A DNA stretch of 64,000 bases from a virus (taxonomy: Duplodnaviria; Caudoviricetes): IMG/VR virus record IMGVR_UViG_2731957753_000001, positions 12,324 through 76,323 of that record. One strand, written 5' to 3'. The notes under the pieces were generated by a model, which worked only from the letters and a program-made list of their open reading frames with translations, had not been told where the DNA came from and made no database searches. Positions 4,836 to 63,923 of this stretch are shown piece by piece. Numbering within the stretch: the first letter of the stretch is position 1; every line of letters starts with the position of its first letter. The position numbers were made by a program, and so were the translations under genes.

Positions 4836-5297
4836 GTGAGCGACACCGACAACGACAGCAGCCCCCCGGCCTCCTACAGCTGGATCGACTACGTCAACTC
4901 CCTCTGCCACATACACCACCTCACCCTCCACCAATTCACACAGAGAATCGGCGCCAGCGCCTCCGTCAGCACCAAATGGAAAGAAGGCGGCACCGTCCGC
5001 GCCGGCACCGCCCTCACCATCGCCCGCGAGTTCAACATCCCCTACCAGGAGGTGCTGATCGCGGCGGAACTGGCCGAACCCTCGGACTTCGACTACAAGG
5101 GCAGTTCGCAAGTCCTCCAGCTCGCGGCACTGCCGAACGACACACTCATCGAGATCTTGAAAGAGCGGTTGATCCCCGACGAGGAACGCGACCCCACCCT
5201 TGCCAAGCCCGCCCCTAAGTCCGGTGATCTGCGGCGCCGGCGGATACCTGTAGAGGAGCCGCCCCGGGTTGCGCGTCGTCGCACCAACGGGAAATAG
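4836..5297 (+). CDS. Immunity repressor (XRE HTH)
   Basis: 'LTLHQFTQRIGASASVSTKWKEG', 'YQEVLIAAELAEPSD'; divergent from cro and next to int. Confidence 0.8.
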   Translation: MSDTDNDSSPPASYSWIDYVNSLCHIHHLTLHQFTQRIGASASVSTKWKEGGTVRAGTALTIAREFNIPYQEVLIAAELAEPSDFDYKGSSQVLQLAALPNDTLIEILKERLIPDEERDPTLAKPAPKSGDLRRRRIPVEEPPRVARRRTNGK

Positions 5298-6405: not shown

Positions 6406-7761
6406 ATGCCGAAGCAAGAACTCGCCCTCGGAGAGTTGGGCGACATCAGCTACACCGCCATACGCAAGGGCGGCAAGATCACTGGATACCGGGCGCGCGC
6501 ACGATGGCGCCGCCCCACCGACGGCGAGATCCTGCCGAAGGAACGATCCGGGAAAAGCAAGGGCGCCGCGAAGACCGCCTTGAAGAAGTACGTCACCGAG
6601 TTGAACGAGTACGCGGCCGGCGGCAGCGAGACCATCACACGGGATACGAAGATCCCGGTGTTGGCGGACCTGTGGCTGGCTGAGTGCGAGTTGGATGAGG
6701 GCATGGATGATGCGTCGGTGGAGCGGTATCGGGAGGAGATCGAGCCGACGGAGATGCGGTACCGGAAGGACGGCAGCCCGGACCGCAGGGTGAAGCCGGA
6801 TGCGTTGAAGATCAAGACGGCGTTCGCGAACATATCGGTGTGGGAGTTGAACACGCCCCGCTATGACCGGCATGAGAAGGCGATCCTGGCGACGGGTGCG
6901 AAGCAGAAGGCGCGGTTTCATCGGATCATCGTGTCCGGGATGATGGATCTCGCGGTCCGGCATGGGGCCATCAAGCCGGGGGATCATCCGGTGCGGAGTT
7001 TGAAGGCGATTCGCCGGGAGCGGAAGAATCCGCGGGCTCTGGAGCAAGGGCAACTGTCGGAGTTGCGGGCGCAGTTGCGTGCGTGGTTGCGGGGTGAGGC
7101 GATCGAGGGCACGGAGGCGTATACGCATGGTCCTGCGCGTGACCCGGATGTGGTTCGGATCGGTGATCTGATGTTGGCGACGGGTGCCCGTCCTGGGGAG
7201 GTTCTAGGCTTCCGGAAGTGTGATATTCATCTCCCTGCCAGTCCGGGTGACCCGTGGCTGGTGGATGTGTTCGGGACGGTGAAGCCGGACAGGAACGGGA
7301 AGCTGAACCGGGTTCCGCATACGAAGACCGGTGAGGACGGTAAGCGGACGGTGATCTTGCCGAAGTTCGGGGTGGCGGTGCTCGCGGAGATGGGCGCTTA
7401 TGAGTGGGAGCCGGGTGATGAGTCGCCGGTGTTTCCGTCTCGGGCTGGCACTTGGCGGTGGCCTGCGAATTTTCGGCGGTCGTGGCGTGAGGCGCGGGGT
7501 TCGAAGTTCGCGTGGGTGGAGCCGAAGACGTTCCGGAAGACTGTGGCGACTGTCATAGCTGACGAGTACGGGCATGAGCGGGCTGGGGCTCAGTTGGGGC
7601 ACACTCCGGGCTCGAAGGTGACCCAACTCAGTTACATCCAGCGCGCCTTGCTTGTGGCGGACTCCACTCCGGCCTTGGATAGGTTCTCGGAGATACCGGC
7701 CGTGACGGAGGAGGTGGAGGTTCTGGATATGGGCGAGTCCGACGGGGAAACTGTGGGATAA
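6406..7761 (+). CDS. int: Tyrosine integrase
   Basis: ATGARPGE (Arg), PKTFRKT, QLGH and catalytic Tyr (LSYI); adjacent attP. Confidence 0.95.
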   Translation: MPKQELALGELGDISYTAIRKGGKITGYRARARWRRPTDGEILPKERSGKSKGAAKTALKKYVTELNEYAAGGSETITRDTKIPVLADLWLAECELDEGMDDASVERYREEIEPTEMRYRKDGSPDRRVKPDALKIKTAFANISVWELNTPRYDRHEKAILATGAKQKARFHRIIVSGMMDLAVRHGAIKPGDHPVRSLKAIRRERKNPRALEQGQLSELRAQLRAWLRGEAIEGTEAYTHGPARDPDVVRIGDLMLATGARPGEVLGFRKCDIHLPASPGDPWLVDVFGTVKPDRNGKLNRVPHTKTGEDGKRTVILPKFGVAVLAEMGAYEWEPGDESPVFPSRAGTWRWPANFRRSWREARGSKFAWVEPKTFRKTVATVIADEYGHERAGAQLGHTPGSKVTQLSYIQRALLVADSTPALDRFSEIPAVTEEVEVLDMGESDGETVG

Positions 7762-9792: not shown

Positions 9793-9822
9793 ATTCGCCT
9801 CGCCTTGCAGAATTAGAGAGAA

Positions 9823-11082
9823 TCAGCCGAGACCCGAGAAGATCCTGACATCGTTCCAAGAATGGGAATTGCCGGAGCTACCGCGACCGACCCGAAGCCC
9901 TGCATAATTGTTCGCCGCAGGAACCACACCATGCATCCAGCCAACACATAGCTGCGGGACATCATTGATTTCGATCCAGCCGATACCGTTATATATCGAG
10001 AACGCCACCCGGTCACCGGACTTCACAGTCAAACCGAAGCTCTCCGGGAGATCCTGCATCATCGTGAACGAAGCTGTCGCGATGTTCCCCGACCAGTTAG
10101 ACACCCACAATTTGTTGCCGAAAATATTCGCGGCAAGCCCCTGGTCTGCGGCCGTGTTCGTGGCAAGAATCAACGCGCTCGCGGCACCATTGTTCGGTCC
10201 GATATTCCCGCCAACAGTCGCCTCGATACGCTGACGCCCCGACAGGTTACCGGTATCCCGCAGCAGCCCCTGCCAGTTCCCTTCCGTCGTAGCAGTGGTG
10301 GACCAGGAATCCGCAACTACGGCAGCATCCGCCCCGTACTGGACCCAGCCATTCACGCCATTCTGGTTACCGCTCCGACCATTGAAATCGTCGTAGAAAT
10401 CCTGCTGCCACACAGTCTTCGGCGGAATCGACGGCGGACGATCATAGTGGTACAACTTCCGGATCCACGTATCACACAAGGCCGCATTAACAAAACGAAG
10501 GCAACGCCGACCCGGCCCCAACCGGAACGCTGGACGGATCATCTGCGAACCCACATAGGTACCATTCATCCAAATACGGATCCACTTATCGTCCTCGCAC
10601 CAAATCTGCACAGTATGCCATTGCCCGAAGAACGAAGCCGGAGCACTCCAGTAGCTAAGATTGTCGTCCGCCGACATCATGCTATAGAAATGCACAAGCT
10701 GAAATACGTGACCGCTATACACCAATGGTGCATTCATCAACCGGACACCGACACAATTCTGGAATGCCCCACCGATCGTGGTCCAAGAGTCGGTAAAATA
10801 TATAGCGAAACTCTGAACCACCAAGCCTTCAACGGGGAAGTACACCTCCAGCTCGACACCCCAGTTCGGGGTAAACGGTTGATACGCATACGACTCGCCG
10901 CCGCCAGTGACAGTCGCCACATTCGACGGGATATGCAGCGTGTCATCCTCCGTGATGTCCGCTGTCGTACCGTCCCCGAGATGCCTCCAAGGAAGCTGAA
11001 TCGAGCCCGTCGTATACGACGTGAAATCATCAAACCAGCCCGCCCACGCAAGGGGCAGGTTCCGGCGCATCAGAAAACTCAT
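9823..11082 (-). CDS. Minor tail protein with two lectin-like (DDF-initiated) domains; candidate receptor-binding protein
   Basis: 'WFDDFTSY' and 'FYDDFNGR' domain starts; Trp-rich beta-sandwich character. Confidence 0.7.
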   Translation of the reverse strand: MSFLMRRNLPLAWAGWFDDFTSYTTGSIQLPWRHLGDGTTADITEDDTLHIPSNVATVTGGGESYAYQPFTPNWGVELEVYFPVEGLVVQSFAIYFTDSWTTIGGAFQNCVGVRLMNAPLVYSGHVFQLVHFYSMMSADDNLSYWSAPASFFGQWHTVQIWCEDDKWIRIWMNGTYVGSQMIRPAFRLGPGRRCLRFVNAALCDTWIRKLYHYDRPPSIPPKTVWQQDFYDDFNGRSGNQNGVNGWVQYGADAAVVADSWSTTATTEGNWQGLLRDTGNLSGRQRIEATVGGNIGPNNGAASALILATNTAADQGLAANIFGNKLWVSNWSGNIATASFTMMQDLPESFGLTVKSGDRVAFSIYNGIGWIEINDVPQLCVGWMHGVVPAANNYAGLRVGRGSSGNSHSWNDVRIFSGLG

Positions 11083-42439: not shown

Positions 42440-42446
42440 ATCGTTG

Positions 42447-42521
42447 TGGCAGTGGTCGGATTTGAACCGACGTCCTCTTGGGTATGAACCAAGCGCGCTC
42501 ACCGAACTGCGCCACACTGCT
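42447..42521 (-). tRNA. tRNA with CAT anticodon (Met/fMet/Ile2)
   Basis: Full cloverleaf: D-stem GCGC/GCGC, anticodon arm CTTGG-TTCATAC-CCAAG, T-arm GTCGG-TTCAAAT-CCGAC; A1:C72 mismatch; CCA not encoded. Confidence 0.92.
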
Positions 42522-58500: not shown

Positions 58501-60315
58501 ATATCCTGGGCGCGCCGCCAAGTCCGAGGCTCATCCTCGACGACCTCATGGTCTACGACGGGGTCGCCGGCGAGTTCAGGGTCGAGGATTTCGACGGTGG
58601 TCCGCACCTTCACCACCATCGACTGTTCCTTCAGCAACTCGTCCAGGCCCCACTTACTCACCTCATCAGCAAGGGCGGCGCGAGTCTGACTCACATGGTG
58701 CGCTTCATCCTCGCCCCACAGGAGAGCGATAGCGCCATTCGGCAGAACCTCAGATTTCGGGTAACCGCACAGGAACTCGCGGCGGACGTCGTGCGCGAGT
58801 TCCCCATTCGGGAGCCGCAACGCATACCGGATACTGACGTTGTCGCTCACCACACGACCTCGCTCACGTTCCGGGCAGCCAACGCCGCCTTGCAGAACCG
58901 CTGCTGAGTCAGGAACGGCAACCGATCCCACGGGATACGGTCGAACGCATCCCCGTAGATCGTGTCGCCGAGTTCGGCGTAGATGGCTTCCGCGGCGGCT
59001 TCGAGACCGGGATCGAACACCGATCCGTCTTTGAGGTTCACAAGTTCTCCTTGATTGATTGGGGTTAGCTTGAGACGGCGCCGGCGGCGAGGATCAGCAG
59101 CGCGACCGAGCACACCGCCAACACGACAATGAGCAGCAGTTCGCCGTACGCCTTCCGCCATTCGGTGACAGCGCGCGGGGCCGACATCACGCCGCCGCCT
59201 GTTCGGGCGCCTGATGCTCGCGGGCGCACAAGTCCCGAATGAACTCGCACTGCCAGTCCGCGAGCGCTTTACGTTCTTCCCGGTACTTGCGCCACATCTC
59301 GATCGACCGCTCCTTGTAGAGCTCCACGTTCTTCCCGTTCGGGGAATCCTGACGCCACCGCGGTATCGGCCCGATCAGCCCATACAACCGCCAGCCGTCG
59401 TAGCAGGCGGCACAGTCCGGGCACAGGCGGGACATCAGGCCGCCGCCCGATGCGGGGCGTACAAGGCCGCCCACGCGAGCACGGTCACGTGCACGCCGTA
59501 GTCGTCGTTCAATCCCGGATGAGCGAGCAGACGAGACAAGCCCTGCCCCGCGTACTCCCACGAGTAGGCGTCAGCTCCGGCGACGGTGAACGGGCCGTCA
59601 TGGTCGACCTCGATGAGGGAGAAGTCGACGTGGACGGCGGCGGGGTCGCCGGTGCGGACACAGTAGGTGCCGCGGAAGTCGGTTCCGTCCCAGTCGATGT
59701 CGATGGTCATGCGGGGGTCGGCGGGCAGCCCGAGCGCGTCCCGGACGGCGGCGGTGGTGATCTCGTTGTGACGCATGGCGGGCCCCTTTCAGGCGGCGAG
59801 CTGGTTGTTGAGGGAGTGGGGGGCGTAGACGGTGAGGTCGTCGCAGTCGCCCCATTCGGCGAGGTACCGGATGTGGTCGGGGGCGCAGTCGAGGCAGAAG
59901 TAGTGCGTGCCGCACTCCCCCGCTGTGATGACATCGACTGATACGACGGCGGAAGAAGGGCATTCGTCGCAGTGCTGCCAACGAACCGCTACCGGGACGA
60001 ACCATAGTTCGTGGCGCTGGATGCCGAACATGTCGGCGAGCCCGGTCACGCGGACGCCCACAGGTTGTCGTTGATGCTGACGCACGGCCCGCACAGCGGG
60101 GCGCGACCGATGTAGTCCCAGCCGCCGGGCCGGTAGTGCAGTTCGTGGCAGGTGTCCCCGGCCGGGTTGCCGCACCAGCAGCAGGTTTCGGTCAACGGGC
60201 CCGCCTGGTCGCAGACGGTGACGTAACCGATTTCCGGCGAGTACATGACGTCGCAGGTGTTGATGTGCCCGCAGATGGGGATCGGGGTGAGGGTCGAGAT
60301 GTCGGGGTCGATCAT
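55587..60315 (-). other. Run of ~17 small early genes driven from the promoter at ~60.4 kb
   Basis: Coupled ORFs, e.g. 55587-55967 (HGT..Y...GCRC), 56499-56882, 56882-57160, 57557-57772, 57908-58198, 58335-58850, 59435-59776, 60046-60315. Confidence 0.7.
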
Positions 60316-60371
60316 CGGATGCTCCTCGGGGATTCGGTTCTTACCGGTGCCAGCCGGTGGTGTTGCACTTG

Positions 60372-60400
60372 AGTTTAGTCACAACACTGCGGTGTAAACA
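60372..60400 (-). promoter_or_regulatory. Leftward promoter TGTTTACAC-N14-TAAACT
   Basis: Same architecture as 62566-62594. Confidence 0.65.
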
Positions 60401-60460
60401 AGGCCCAATTTCGGCGCGTCAACGAGACAGCCCTGAACGGGCGCCGGCGAGGAGGATCCG

Positions 60461-60785
60461 GGAGCTTCCGACGGAAGACGTAGGAAGCTCCGACACTTTC
60501 CGCGGAACCTCCGTGCACCCTCCGGAATTTTCCGGAGACCGTCCGGAGGGTGTCGGGAGGACGGCGGGGAACGGGCAGGAACGGCGTTCGAACGGCGTCC
60601 CGAAGGGTTCCGGAAGGGTTCGCGAAGGGTTTCGAAACCCTTCCGAAAGGGTTCGGGATTGGTGATCGAAACCGTTCGGGATTGGTGATCGGATTACCAA
60701 TCGGATTGGTAATTGACCTGCGGAAACACCGAGATACATGCGCGTGCATGTCACGTGACATGTCACGGTTTGTCACGGCGTGACA
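60461..60785. repeat. Mosaic of six short, phased direct/inverted repeat families (iteron-like)
   Basis: GGAGCTTCC IR; TCCGGA x3; ACGG x4; AAGGGTT x4 plus 1 inverted at exact multiples of 11 bp; GATTGGT x3 plus 1 inverted; TGTCACG x3 plus 2 inverted. Confidence 0.85.
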
Positions 60786-60863
60786 GCGCGAAACGCTGAG
60801 CAGTTGACTAGGCGCACGAGAGCCCCGAACCCAACACGGATCCGGGGCTCTGCGCCAGGACGA

Positions 60864-61103
60864 CTAGCTACGGCTCGCCCGACCGCCAATCAGCTGATAG
60901 CAGCGCATCCACGAAAACCCCGCAGCCGACGCAATATCCTTCCGCGGCACACCAGCATCCAACGCCGCACGAATCGCATTCTTCAACGGCTCACGAACAA
61001 TCTCTCGTCGCTCCAACAATTCGTCATCCAGGCGTCGTAATTCACGGCTCACCCCCAGTGACGCAGACTGAATCGTGCACAACAGTTCCATATTCGCGCT
61101 CAT
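60864..61103 (-). CDS. Small HTH regulator (paralog of 22949..23209)
   Basis: 'AALDAGVPRKDIASAAGFSWMRCYQL'. Confidence 0.75.
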   Translation of the reverse strand: MSANMELLCTIQSASLGVSRELRRLDDELLERREIVREPLKNAIRAALDAGVPRKDIASAAGFSWMRCYQLIGGRASRS

Positions 61104-61801
61104 GCGGCCATCTCCTCGCTAAACAACGAAATCAATTGATCCAGACCGGAGGATGTCAATTCCACTCCACCGGATTCAACTTCGTTGGCCTCCACATCCC
61201 TTACCATCCCCAAGCGCACCGATTCGAGATCGGCCCTGAGGTCACCCCACCGGTCGCGGTATACCCAACCGAACTCGCGCAGCAACTTTGTGAGCCGACG
61301 CTTGCCAGTGTCGAACCCCATGACACGTAGCTCCTGCGCCGCTTCGTCGATCCTGTAGCTATCCGCGTGAACCAGCCGTTCTCCACTGGGGGGCGTAGGA
61401 ACCTGGCGAGGCAGTTCGACGGGCATGGACTCAACCAGCTCCTCGCGCCGGCGTCGCGCCACCGTTGCGCGGGCCATGCTGAGGCGCCGAGCGCGTGTCA
61501 GCGCGGTTTCGAAGTCCACGTCCATGTATTCACGTCCGGAATCTCCGAGTCGTTTAAGTATTTCCTCGTTCGCGCGGGCGTCGGCATGGGGCATAGAAAT
61601 CCACACTCGCCCTATTTCTCGACGGTAGGCCGCGGCGTCTCGTCGATGTTGGGCAATCCTTCCGCGCGGGTCGCTTGTGATGCCCACCTTCACGCCAATC
61701 TCAAGTATCTCGACTATGTACAGGTGGTGTTCAACGCGCCGCATTATTGGTTCGTAGTCTTCGAGCGGTGCACCCGATCGAGAACGATTCTCAAGCCCCA
61801 T
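61100..61801 (-). CDS. GIY-YIG-like / KilAC antirepressor-like fusion, leaderless
   Basis: 'LYIVEILEIGVKVGITSDPRGRIAQH' plus 'YRIDEAAQEL...TGKRRLTKLLREFGWVYR'. Confidence 0.7.
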   Translation of the reverse strand: MGLENRSRSGAPLEDYEPIMRRVEHHLYIVEILEIGVKVGITSDPRGRIAQHRRDAAAYRREIGRVWISMPHADARANEEILKRLGDSGREYMDVDFETALTRARRLSMARATVARRRREELVESMPVELPRQVPTPPSGERLVHADSYRIDEAAQELRVMGFDTGKRRLTKLLREFGWVYRDRWGDLRADLESVRLGMVRDVEANEVESGGVELTSSGLDQLISLFSEEMAA

Positions 61802-61807
61802 AAAGCA

Positions 61808-61836
61808 ATTCTATTTGCTTTGTAAAACCACGAATT
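61808..61836 (-). promoter_or_regulatory. Phage-specific promoter motif, copy 5
   Basis: AATTCGTGGTTTTAC-N8-TAGAAT-N6-ATG. Confidence 0.8.
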
Positions 61837-62565
61837 TCGCAAATCTCCTGCGCGGCAACGCCGATCGGCAACCGCACGCGCAACCGGGGGTGGGCACGAG
61901 GGCCGCGACACGCCCGGCGGTCTACCCCTGCGCGCGGGAGAGCGAGTGAACGTGTGCGCATATACGCGTGCGCGGAGTGACTTGAACGCGGGCGCGCGTT
62001 ACTTAACGCAACGTGGTTGCGAAACAGACGAACACGCTGCGCGCCGATTCGTCGAGAACGGATCTCACGTCCCATAGGTGGCTGGCTGAAAGACGCCGCA
62101 AATGCATGCTGCTGCATCTTTTCCGTGACCCCTTCGGGAACTGCCGGTTTTCGACGTGGAGATTCCCCGGGCTGCTTTTGCCGCTCTTTTCGAGGTCCCT
62201 ACGGCTCTCAGCGTGGGGTCCGTGGTTCTTCCTGAGGTGACCAAACGACCGCGGGCGCGAGGCTGCGGATTTCGCGCGGGTTCGTTGCGGATTTCTCGCC
62301 GGCAACCCTGATTCGGGGCAAGGTCGGCTCAGCGTTCGAACCAGAGGGCCCCGTAATGCTTCCGTAGGACGCTCTCTCGCGGACTTTCCCCCCTTCCATG
62401 GCATCTGTGTACCCCCAAGGTGTTTCGATCGCTTAGAGAGCCGTTTACGCCATGGTTTAAACCTCACCGGGATGACGGACAGCGACACCTACCCGTCGAA
62501 CTGCCCGTTTCCCACACCCACCGCCTCGGCCGCCAAAACTTCCCCAGCATGAGTTTGCGCAAAGG

Positions 62566-62594
62566 TGTTTACACTTTGGTGTAGTTCCTATACT
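62566..62594 (+). promoter_or_regulatory. Rightward promoter TGTTTACAC-N14-TATACT
   Basis: Upstream of the + operon starting at 62651. Confidence 0.7.
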
Positions 62595-62650
62595 GTGGTG
62601 TCAACGCAGCAAACCGGCTGGCACCGGAAACCGAACCAAGGAGCACGACG

Positions 62651-63855: not shown

Positions 63856-63923
63856 GGGTCGCTCTGGTGAGTGCCGCGAATGGCGATTAGCGGCAGCAGG
63901 TTCGAATCCTGCACGACCCGCCA
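63856..63923 (+). ncRNA. tRNA-like RNA (acceptor stem, T-arm, CCA; no D-stem or anticodon loop)
   Basis: GGGTCG/CGACCC stem, GCAGG-TTCGAAT-CCTGC, G73-CCA. Confidence 0.6.

What the first reader, a model, noticed from the sequence alone, without database searches (positions are those of the whole stretch)
60461..60785. Mosaic of six different iteron-like repeat families: possible multi-origin decoy array
Seen, in 325 bp without a credible gene: (A) GGAGCTTCC/GGAAGCTCC IR enclosing CTTCC-GAC-GGAAG; (B) TTCCGCGGAA, CTCCGGAA-TT-TTCCGGAG and a third TCCGGAG; (C) ACGG at 60561/71/81/92; (D) AAGGGTT at 60603/14/25/47 with inverted AACCCTT at 60636, an exact 11-bp phase; (E) GATTGGT x3 plus inverted ACCAATC, including an 18-bp direct repeat; (F) TGTCACG x3 plus CGTGACA x2. 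Established: lambda-O-type initiator genes carry one such phased iteron family in their linker. From memory, the translations here (RDMSRD, ITNPIGNPITNP, KPFANPSGTL, SGKFRR) resemble linkers of different actinophage Rep proteins. No rep gene is present in the window. Inference: a compact library of foreign origin sites that titrates initiators of competing phages or plasmids (incompatibility-type defence), lets this phage borrow several helper initiators, or yields antisense RNA against rep mRNAs.
Basis: partly seen in the sequence, partly recalled or inferred. Interest (0 to 1): 0.82.

Follow-up and report, generated by a model that had tools for sequence, protein, structure and literature searches.

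The report
Second, intergenic iteron site in actinophage
A temperate actinobacterial phage carries, far from its replication-initiator gene, a non-coding array that repeats the initiator's own binding words beside conserved words typical of a different initiator clade; it most likely acts as a second replication-control or origin site rather than a library of decoys.

Summary
The repeats are real and lie exactly where reported. This is the most repeat-dense 325 bp of the 76-kb phage contig and it is non-coding.

The "six independent foreign families" reading does not hold:
- Modules B to E form one ~11-bp-phased run of about 18 units.
- Module E is the phage's own Rep iteron. The rep gene lies 1.8 kb outside the window and carries the same word about ten times.
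- Module D is the iteron word of another clade of the same Rep family (Tardus, Nubi and Jeon type). No such Rep exists in this phage or its host genome.
- Modules A, B, C and F match no Rep origin.

Two collinear relatives carry a homologous orphan array with the same A, B, C or D islands. One of them (G072) has an unrelated O-like initiator, and its array holds copies of that initiator's iterons instead of E. So the own-iteron part co-varies with the initiator.

The array belongs to a larger non-coding module with a conserved GC-rich core and a very AT-rich patch.

My best reading (about 0.5) is a secondary, initiator-bound cis element: an auxiliary origin or a handcuffing/control site, comparable to P4 crr or P1 incA. 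It remains open why D words are conserved without a cognate Rep, so a decoy or initiator-borrowing role is still possible for that module alone.

The parts
60316..60420 (-). Promoter-like region and conserved 5' leader (..GTTTACAC..TAAACT..ACCGGCTGGCACCGG..GAGGAG-ATG) of the long minus-strand small-gene operon that starts at 60315
   Evidence: A homologous cassette occurs at 62545-62650 (+) and at the head of the same operon in G072 (~24,012) and G027 (~26,041). The consensus promoter scan found nothing, so the promoter is inferred from sequence only.
60461..60491 (.). Module A: 13-nt-arm inverted repeat GGAGCTTCCGACG / CGTAGGAAGCTCC (hairpin). The word CTTCCGACG is conserved in G072.
   Evidence: (I12). 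It folds at -19.7 / -21.7 kcal/mol, z -3.3 / -4.5. It matches no Rep-origin dialect.
60498..60560 (+). Module B: TTCCGCGGAA, the CTCCGGAA-TT-TTCCGGAG palindrome, and 11-bp-phased TCCGGAG/TCGGGAG units. Includes the island GGAGGGTGTCGGG (60545-60557), identical in G072.
   Evidence: The words are common in the genome and match no Rep dialect.
60561..60599 (+). Module C: four GGAACGG/CGAACGG units at 10-11-bp spacing. Similar GAACGGCG words occur in the G027 array.
   Evidence: 21 nt at 90% to G027. A weak word on its own.
60600..60654 (+). Module D: five 11-bp units nnGAAGGGTTn, the fourth inverted. This is the iteron word of the Tardus/Nubi/Jeon-type Rep clade.
   Evidence: The word occurs at 3 or more copies in 21 of 85 Rep-family origins. 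It has 23-24-nt exact matches to the G027 and G072 arrays. It is the only AAGGGTT cluster in the 7.4-Mb genome. No D-type Rep is present in the phage or the host.
60655..60716 (+). Module E: four copies (three direct, one inverted; 23-, 12- and 12-bp spacing) of the phage's own Rep iteron GATTGGT(A/G)AT / ATTACCAATC
   Evidence: 18-nt and 16-nt exact matches to the intragenic iterons at C25:9895-10010. 22 shared 8-mers against a null mean of 1.6, with 0 of 1441 windows reaching it.
60747..60785 (.). Module F: perfect 16-bp palindrome CATGTCACGTGACATG, a third TGTCACG, and the 15-bp palindrome TGTCACG-G-CGTGACA.
   Evidence: It is the only such cluster in the genome, is absent from the relatives' arrays and matches no Rep dialect.
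60817..60855 (-). Strong hairpin directly after the HTH gene; a probable factor-independent terminator without a U-tail
   Evidence: I13. -34.3 kcal/mol, z -5.0. Not called by the T-run-based scan.
60864..61801 (-). Two genes: a 79-aa HTH protein (60864-61103) and a 233-aa T5orf172/KilAC (Ant-like) protein (61100-61801). They are probably an insertion that separates the array from the core element.
   Evidence: GC3 is 0.61-0.64 against 0.76-0.93 in the neighbours. There are no homologues in G072 or G027, where array and core are about 100 bp apart.
61798..61846 (.). AT-rich patch (70% AT), the second most AT-rich 40-bp window of the 76-kb contig; a candidate unwinding element
   Evidence: fraction of windows at least as AT-rich: 0.00017
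61907..62003 (.). Conserved GC-rich alternating core (..GCGCGCGGGAGAGCGAGTGAACGTGTGCG..GCGCGCGTTAC)
   Evidence: 29 nt are identical in G072. It is 79-93% identical in elements of G097, G009, G168, G122 and G107. In G097, G009 and G168 it is followed by an AT-rich patch, and in G097 and G009 by further repeat families.
62200..62262 (.). Conserved non-coding element (..CGTGGTTCTT..GGTGACCAA..CGCGGGCGCG)
   Evidence: Matches G027 and G072. The G072 and G027 copies are 93% identical over 61 nt.
62545..62650 (+). Second copy of the promoter/leader cassette, driving the plus-strand genes from 62651

Best explanation
The array is a non-coding, initiator-binding cis element of a temperate actinophage, and it is a second site for the replication initiator. 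The phage's Rep gene lies just outside the window at C25:9395-10495. Like lambda O, it holds its primary iteron set inside its own linker.

I infer that the same Rep binds the four E-type iterons at 60655-60716. Those sites continue, on the same helical face, into the 11-bp-phased D, C and B units. Together with a conserved GC-rich core and an AT-rich patch, the array forms a ~1-kb origin-like module. In this phage a two-gene insertion splits that module.

The most likely function is one of two: an auxiliary origin, or a pairing (handcuffing) and titration partner of the intragenic origin that tunes when and how often replication fires. Its position beside the promoter of the long pre-terminase operon could also couple replication to transcription.

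Shown: the identity of the words, their phasing, non-coding status, conservation in relatives, and co-variation of the own-iteron part with the initiator in two phages.

Inferred: binding by Rep, and the effect on replication.
For: 1. Own iterons. ATTACCAAT-type words occur only in the rep linker and in the array. The two places share 18-nt and 16-nt exact matches, and the array reproduces the rep array's 12-bp spacing and head-to-head flip.

2. Co-variation. G072, a collinear relative with 50-80% identical structural proteins, has an unrelated O-like initiator plus DnaB. Its orphan array carries two look-alikes of that gene's palindromic iterons. In the 3x3 matrix of shared 8-mers, C25 on C25 gives 22 (0 of 1441 null windows reach it) and G072 on G072 gives 9 (4 of 1626). 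All cross terms are at background.

3. Selection. Short islands are identical between phages while the DNA between them does not align: D 23-24 nt, B 13 nt, core 29 nt, tail 61 nt at 93%.

4. Origin-like anatomy.
- About 18 helically phased units.
- The second most AT-rich window of the contig lies about 100 bp from the core.
- The same core sits next to an AT-rich patch in G097, G009 and G168, and next to further repeat families in G097 and G009.
- G027's version has a phased cluster of four DnaA-box-like words, including TTGTCCACA.

5. Non-coding, with no Rfam match.

6. Rarity. No remote second iteron cluster was found in 33 Rep-family loci or in 8 whole phage records. The arrangement is therefore specific, not a by-product of the Rep family.
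Against: - No binding or replication data exist.
- The third relative, G027, shows no enrichment of its own initiator's iterons in its array.
- In C25 the AT-rich patch and the core are about 1.1 kb from the iterons.
- There are no DnaA boxes in the C25 module.
- G072 and G027 already have complete lambda-type origins (iterons plus an AT-rich patch) inside their initiator genes, so a second origin is not obviously needed.
- The D, C, B and A words are conserved although no protein that reads them is identified. The model does not explain them.
- The closest Rep relative, L013 (65% identity), has no such array.
Confidence: 0.5

Rival explanations
1. Heterologous-initiator site (a narrowed form of the first reader's idea). 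The D-type iterons exist to engage Rep proteins of other phages of the Tardus/Nubi/Jeon type. They would either titrate them or mis-fire replication, which is exclusion, or let this prophage be replicated by a co-infecting phage's Rep, which is piracy.
For: - D words are indistinguishable from genuine D-type origins: the same core, the 11-bp phase and one inverted copy.
- They are conserved as exact islands in three related phages, none of which encodes a D-type Rep or any second Rep-like domain.
- D-type Rep prophages do occur in the host genus, in G055 and G101.
- Cloned lambda ori iterons, together with oop transcription, exclude rep-lambda phages in trans (PMC3349717).
Against: - Only one of the six modules fits.
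- The array is single copy, whereas the lambda precedent needed multicopy plasmids plus oop transcription.
- D-type Reps are rare among prophages of this genus: 2 of the 29 A1-family Rep loci typed, with 36 of 266 other genomes carrying a Rep of the family at all.
- The neighbouring module is the phage's own iteron, which a decoy does not need.
- The array is an inherited unit, not an accumulating library.
Confidence: 0.18
2. Evolutionary debris. The array is a fossil record of successive replication-module swaps: pieces of rep-linker origins left by illegitimate recombination, with no present function.
For: - The minus-strand ORF reads like fused Rep linkers.
- The three related phages have three different initiators, so module swapping is frequent.
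- The D, E and C words are related variants of one unit.
Against: - There is no Rep N- or C-terminal remnant around the array.
- Relative to the D-word orientation, the GC-rich element lies on the opposite side from its position in D-type rep genes.
- Perfect words and exact phasing persist, while the DNA between the islands has diverged beyond alignment.
- Own iterons are present in two phages with unrelated initiators.
Confidence: 0.12
3. Transcriptional control region. The words are operators for several regulators, possibly including Rep acting as a transcription factor. They would set the activity of the two outward-facing homologous promoters at about 60380 (-) and 62560 (+).
For: - The array abuts the promoter/leader of the long operon, and a second copy of that cassette lies 2.2 kb away.
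- Module F consists of perfect palindromes typical of dimeric repressors.
- An HTH gene is adjacent.
Against: - In G072 and G027 the homologous array is not next to that promoter. It lies behind the lysis genes.
- A, B and F words occur nowhere else in the phages, unlike dispersed operators.
- Eighteen phased units are more than known operators use.
Confidence: 0.1
4. Packaging recognition site (cosB/pac-like terminase binding repeats at the virion genome ends).
For: - In the reverse orientation the module would sit at the left end of a conventional temperate-actinophage map.
- The module sits between outward-facing promoters.
Against: - It is 21 kb from the terminase genes here, and behind the lysis genes in the relatives.
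- The words are initiator iterons, not shared with terminase type.
- No terminal repeat or overlap was found at the contig ends.
Confidence: 0.03

Closest known systems
Intragenic iteron origins of lambda O and of the actinophage 'RepA-like / replication initiation protein' family (phrog_3171; e.g. Gordonia phages Tardus gp58, Nubi gp61, BrutonGaster gp84, Mycobacterium phage Jeon gp56)
   Same: Identical iteron words (D and E), 11-12-bp helical phasing, one inverted copy within a direct series, and nearby GC-rich alternating tracts.
   Different: Here the words lie in non-coding DNA, more than 12 kb from the rep gene on the assumed circular map. Two dialects sit side by side. The GC-rich element lies on the opposite side relative to word orientation.
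Secondary iteron clusters of iteron replicons: P1 incA, F incC, and the crr (cis replication region) of satellite phage P4 (from my own knowledge, not checked in the paper library)
   Same: A second cluster of the initiator's own binding sites, away from the primary origin, on the same replicon. Expected action is looping, handcuffing or titration, or a requirement in cis for initiation.
   Different: Those clusters hold only cognate iterons and lie within a few kb of the origin in plasmid-type replicons. This one is in an integrase-encoding temperate siphophage. It is mixed with conserved non-cognate words and is linked to a separate GC/AT core.
Lambda 'inhibition phenotype': exclusion of rep-lambda phages by cloned ori iterons plus oop (PMC3349717)
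   Same: Iterons supplied in trans can silence initiation by the cognate initiator. This is the mechanistic precedent for a decoy reading of module D.
   Different: It is an artificial multicopy plasmid system that also needs oop transcription. No natural prophage-borne heterologous iteron decoy was found in the literature searches.
RepA-dependent and RNA-based prophage origins of extrachromosomal mycobacteriophages (Wetzel et al. 2020, PMC7157519)
   Same: They are actinophage replication functions located outside the lytic replication genes, and some are wholly non-coding.
   Different: Those phages lack integrases and carry parABS, and no repeated motifs were found at their origins. Here there is an integrase, no parA, and a dense iteron array.

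Membership tests
Intragenic lambda-O/actinophage-Rep type origin | Iterons lie inside the initiator's own coding sequence (linker) | tested here: not met
   The array is intergenic and non-coding. The feature is met instead by C25:9895-10010 inside rep.
Intragenic lambda-O/actinophage-Rep type origin | Repeated words identical to those of a cognate initiator, helically phased | tested here: met
   E words match the own Rep iterons, with 12-bp spacing. D words match the D-clade origins, with an exact 11-bp phase.
Intragenic lambda-O/actinophage-Rep type origin | AT-rich or easily unwound element directly adjoining the iterons | tested here: inconclusive
   A top-ranked AT-rich patch exists, but it is about 1.1 kb away, behind a two-gene insertion. 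In G072 the array and core are adjacent, but the AT-richness there is modest (0.55).
Secondary iteron cluster (P1 incA / F incC / P4 crr kind) | Same iteron word as the primary origin, in a separate cluster on the same replicon | tested here: met
   The two clusters are 62 kb apart on the contig, or about 12.6 kb if the contig ends are joined. Joining is assumed, not shown: there is no terminal overlap and no relative bridges the junction.
Secondary iteron cluster (P1 incA / F incC / P4 crr kind) | Cluster co-varies with initiator specificity among relatives | tested here: met
   Met in C25 and G072 but not in G027, with all cross terms null.
Secondary iteron cluster (P1 incA / F incC / P4 crr kind) | Bound by the initiator, and changes copy number or is required in cis for replication | not testable with these tools
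   Needs EMSA or footprinting, ChIP and deletion phenotypes.
Iteron decoy / incompatibility-type exclusion | Carries iterons of an initiator that the element itself does not encode | tested here: met
   Met for module D only. There is no D-type Rep or second Rep-like domain in the phage or in the 7.4-Mb genome. A, B, C and F match no origin, and E is the phage's own iteron.
Iteron decoy / incompatibility-type exclusion | Dosage or accessory function sufficient to titrate (multicopy; oop-like transcript in the lambda case) | tested here: inconclusive
   There is a single array on the contig. Copy number of the element in the cell is unknown. No Rfam RNA was found.
DnaA-dependent origin | Cluster of DnaA boxes (TTGTCCACA-like) | tested here: not met
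   None within 60300-62650 at up to 1 mismatch. A phased four-box cluster is present only in the G027 homologue.
parS centromere | Cognate ParA/ParB partition genes on the element | tested here: not met
   Among the roughly 30 larger or neighbouring ORFs scanned, the only ParB-like hit is a ParB-N-like/nucleotide-kinase fusion at C25:1364-2005, and no ParA was found. The many small ORFs were not scanned.
cos/pac packaging site | Adjacent to the terminase genes or at mapped genome ends | tested here: not met
   21 kb from the terminase genes, in a different position in the relatives, and no terminal repeat.

The most novel reading that the evidence does not exclude
The D-type iterons are maintained by selection in three related temperate phages that encode no D-type Rep. 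They would act as a landing pad for the initiators of other phages. A superinfecting or co-induced D-type-Rep phage would fire or jam this orphan origin. The prophage would then either be amplified at the invader's expense (initiator piracy), or the invader's replication would be silenced, or replication from an unexcised prophage would kill the infected cell (abortive-infection-like). The module would thus be a natural origin that answers to both its own and a foreign initiator.
Probability: 0.18. Interest if true: 0.85.

Novelty: new variant of a known kind. Interest (0 to 1): 0.58.

Why it matters
Actinophage replication origins are almost unstudied, and the Rep family concerned is widespread: 267 phage records, and 14% of genomes in the host genus.

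This locus gives a directly testable case of a phage initiator having a second binding locus away from its gene. That locus is rebuilt to match whenever the replication module is swapped.

It also shows non-cognate iterons conserved without their initiator. This bears on how co-resident phages interfere with or exploit each other's replication.

As a by-product, the survey gives a catalogue of iteron 'dialects' for this Rep family. It also identifies a conserved origin-core-like element in mobile elements of the host genus, which could help in building vectors.

Tried and rejected
- Megablast of 52.5 kb of the window against the phage collection found nothing.
- A genome-contig scan with the single Rep protein gave only distant Alcanivorax hits, which were of no use.
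- The closest Rep relative (L013, an 89-kb provirus) has no homologous array.
- Eight IMG/VR relatives were found through the lysis-region protein. The repeat-dense spots downstream of that gene are coding repeats of fibre-like proteins, not arrays.
- L116 and L118 hits to modules B and C are chance matches inside genes.
- The core-element pattern in IMG/VR gave six chance matches without shared flanks.
- I looked in G097 and G009 for a second cluster of the repeat families that flank the core. None lay within the 17-18 kb fetched, so this is inconclusive.
- The core element is not tied to the A1 Rep family. Four of five genomes with the core have no such Rep, and in the fifth it is on another contig.
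- Rfam gave only a sub-threshold chance hit.
- The sigma-70 and T-run terminator scans found nothing in the region. Promoters and terminators are therefore inferred from homology and folding only.
- DnaA boxes are absent from the C25 module.
- I considered the 133-aa minus-strand ORF as a real 'linker-only' gene. I rejected it on flat codon-position GC and the lack of an RBS.
- From memory, module F resembles the MtrA or PHO-box type direct repeats of actinobacterial response regulators. I did not test this and it is not used.
- Circularity of the contig could not be shown. There is no terminal overlap, and synteny with G072 and G027 does not bridge the junction.

Full report
**Context.** The window is the last 64 kb of a 76,323-bp contig, C25. 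The contig is 62.0% GC, in a 7.44-Mb, 67% GC, 70-contig genome. It has no terminal overlap or inverted ends. It is a temperate siphophage-like element:
- a 1,674-aa tape measure, terminase and capsid genes on the minus strand
- a tyrosine integrase (window 6406-7761) and a repressor (4836-5297)
- a RecE-like exonuclease, an SSB and methyltransferases
- just outside the window, a replication initiation protein at C25:9395-10495 on the minus strand (phrog_3171, E = 3e-60)

Megablast against 50,697 phage records found nothing.

The 325 bp score 141/49 on a strand-collapsed 7-mer repeat statistic. Dinucleotide shuffles give 31+-9 / 2.4+-3, and all windows of the contig give 28+-12 / 2.6+-5. The only comparable place on the contig is inside the rep gene. 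ORFs through the array have flat GC at all three codon positions (about 0.6) and no RBS, while neighbouring genes have GC3 of 0.76-0.93. Rfam finds nothing.

**Anatomy.** From left to right on the plus strand:
- a promoter/leader cassette facing left (60316-60420)
- hairpin A (60461-60491; -20 to -22 kcal/mol)
- two perfect palindromes, module F (60747-60785)
- a -34 kcal/mol hairpin that ends the minus-strand HTH gene
- the HTH (79 aa) and Ant-like (233 aa) genes
- a second, right-facing copy of the promoter/leader cassette (62545-62650)

That 840-bp tract contains the second most AT-rich 40-bp window of the contig (61807, 70% AT). It also holds a conserved GC-rich core (61907-62003) and a conserved tail element (62200-62262).

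**Module E is the phage's own iteron.** The rep linker carries about ten ATTACCAATCSG units at 12-bp spacing (C25:9895-10010). The exact 9-mer ATTACCAAT occurs five times there, twice in the array, and at 0.4 per Mb in the rest of the genome. The two places share 18-nt and 16-nt exact matches. Genome-wide, E-word clusters exist only at these two places. The array reproduces the 12-bp spacing and the head-to-head flip of the intragenic set.

**Module D is the iteron of another clade of the same Rep family.**
- Module D hit inside, or in Mufasa8 and Vibaki next to, replication-initiator genes of Gordonia (Tardus, E = 7e-6; Nubi, ViaConlectus and others), Mycobacterium (Jeon and others) and Arthrobacter (Mufasa8, Vibaki) phages.
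- Module E hit the BrutonGaster rep gene.
- Reading those sites shows the same phased words, including one inverted copy in a direct series.
- The proteins share a conserved N-terminal ~135 aa and a hypervariable linker that the iterons themselves encode. This explains why the array's minus-strand translation looks like Rep linkers.
- The family is large: 267 phage records.
- Among 85 origins collected, D words are present at 3 or more copies in 21 and E words in 12. Other dialects include GATACCCTATCG, GGTGACCCC, TTTACCCC and CATCGGTTTACC.
- A, B and F words match none, and C is a common high-GC word.

So two of the six modules are genuine iteron dialects, and one of those two is the phage's own.

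**No reader for D is encoded.** Sensitive HMM searches with the Rep N-domain over six-frame translations find only the phage's own Rep. This holds for the three related phages and for the whole host genome. D-word clusters occur nowhere else in the genome.

**Relatives.** A scan of 266 other genomes of the host genus found no close copy of the region. It did find two collinear relatives of the phage:
- G072:C1, an 85.6-kb contig with structural proteins 50-80% identical
- an integrated prophage in G027:C1

Both carry a homologous orphan array behind the lysis genes and a terminator.
- The G072 array has the words GGAGGGTGTCGGG, CTTCCGACG, CCGCGGAAC and four D units.
- The G027 array has two D units, four to five C-like units, and then four phased DnaA-box-like words including TTGTCCACA.
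- Conservation comes as sharp islands in otherwise unalignable DNA: a D block of 23-24 nt exact, a B word of 13 nt exact, a core of 29 nt exact, and a 61-nt element at 93% identity between G072 and G027. This argues for selection on the words rather than recent transfer.
- In G072 the array and the GC-rich core are about 100 bp apart. In C25 they are separated by the HTH and Ant-like genes. Those genes have atypical GC3 and no homologues in the relatives, so they are probably an insertion.

**Co-variation with the initiator.** The three phages have three different initiators:
- C25 has the A1-family Rep.
- G072 has an O-like HTH_36 protein plus a DnaB-type helicase.
- G027 has another HTH_36 protein plus a helicase.

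G072's initiator gene holds four lambda-style palindromic iterons followed by an AT-rich patch. Its orphan array holds two look-alikes, CGTGCGCAGATTTTGGGCAGGGTC and GACCCTGCGCAGTATTCGCGCACG, between the D units and the core.

| Own iterons vs own array | Shared 8-mers | Null mean | Null windows reaching it |
|---|---|---|---|
| C25 | 22 | 1.6 | 0 of 1441 |
| G072 | 9 | 2.0 | 4 of 1626 |
| G027 | 1 | 1.3 | 982 of 1675 (not enriched) |

All six cross-comparisons are at background. So in two phages with unrelated initiators the array carries that phage's own iterons. This is the strongest argument that initiators act at this site.

**The arrangement is unusual.** None of 33 Rep-family loci with clear iterons has a second own-iteron cluster within +-10 kb. 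In eight whole phage or provirus records the words cluster only at rep. The closest Rep relative, L013 at 65% identity, has no such array.

**The core element.** The sequence GCGCGCGGGAGAGCGAGTGAACGTGTGCG also occurs at 79-93% identity in otherwise unrelated elements of five further genus genomes. In G097, G009 and G168 it is followed by an AT-rich patch. In G097 and G009 that is followed by several further repeat families. It is absent from IMG/VR and is not tied to the A1 Rep family. Similar GC-rich alternating tracts flank the iterons inside D-type rep genes. This supports an origin-type role for the module as a whole, but it is circumstantial.

**Interpretation.** The best-supported reading is a secondary, initiator-bound cis element. 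It could be an auxiliary origin or a pairing and control partner of the intragenic origin. From my own knowledge, the closest analogues are P4 crr and P1 incA.

Weaknesses of this reading:
- There are no binding data.
- G027 does not show its own iterons in the array.
- G072 and G027 already have complete intragenic origins.
- The conserved D, C, B and A words have no identified reader.

Against it:
- The array is single copy.
- D-type Reps are rare among prophages of this genus. They account for 2 of the 29 A1-family Rep loci typed, and 36 of 266 other genomes carry a Rep of the family.
- The array is an inherited unit rather than a library.

Fossil, operator-cluster and packaging-site readings are less likely, for the reasons listed under the rival explanations.

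**Verdict.** This is a new variant of a known kind: a secondary iteron cluster, here in an integrase-type actinophage, mixed with conserved non-cognate iterons. One real puzzle remains, namely what reads the D words.

Noticed in passing
window 61802-62640: About 840 bp without a credible gene. It contains a 70% AT patch (61807), a GC-rich alternating core (61907-62003) shared at 79-93% identity with elements in six other genomes of the genus, and a further conserved element (62200-62262) shared with G072 and G027.
   Followed up: partly
window 60316-60420 (-) and 62545-62650 (+): Two outward-facing homologous promoter/5'-leader cassettes (GTTTACAC...; ACCGGCTGGCACCGG; RBS) bracket the 2.2-kb segment. 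The same leader heads the long small-gene operon in G072 (~24,012) and G027 (~26,041 in 765,000-based coordinates).
   Followed up: partly
window 60864-61801: The HTH (79 aa) and T5orf172/KilAC Ant-like (233 aa) genes have GC3 of 0.61-0.64 against 0.76-0.93 in their neighbours, and have no homologues in the two related phages. This looks like a recent insertion.
   Followed up: partly
L001 (C25) 9814-9872, inside the rep gene: A second repeat family (GGTCTGC[CT]GTATGC, GGTATG) lies next to the iterons. Other Rep genes of the family have analogous strand-biased short tandem repeats beside their iterons (CTACTAC, CCTGCAC, CCAGTAC, GGGGCTTA, CTCCTTAA). These may be the unwinding or ssDNA-binding part of these origins.
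   Followed up: no
L117 1655-1700 (G027:C1 about 845,554-845,599): Four phased (12, 11, 12 bp) DnaA-box-like words, TTATCAGCA, TTATGCACA, TTGTCCACA and GTAGTCCACA, lie about 100 bp from the orphan array of the G027 prophage. Such clusters are rare: 12 in the 7.4-Mb G000 genome and 3 in G027's 100 kb.
   Followed up: partly
L137 8880-9360 (G097:C52): Another ~500-bp non-coding stretch next to the same core element, with at least three different repeat families (GTGAGTTACGTCACAATCCA x4; AATTSNCACCTTCATATATGTAGRG x3; CGAAAWATNACACCTGATTACTTASTGAGGG x2). This is a second 'mosaic' of repeats in an unrelated element.
   Followed up: partly
window 63881-63923 (last 120 bases of contig): The sequence TGGCGATTAGCGGCAGCAGGTTCGAATCCTGCACGACCCGCCA looks like the 3' part of a tRNA (T-arm plus acceptor). 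ARAGORN calls no tRNA there. It could be an attachment-site core or a truncated tRNA at the contig end.
   Followed up: no
window 42446-42521: A phage-borne tRNA-Met (CAT) on the minus strand, within the long small-gene operon.
   Followed up: no
L120 9011-9196 and L126 9248-9410: Textbook lambda-type intragenic origins in the O-like initiator genes of the two relatives. They have four palindromic (G072) or five 23-bp (G027) iterons, followed immediately by one of the most AT-rich windows of each phage.
   Followed up: yes
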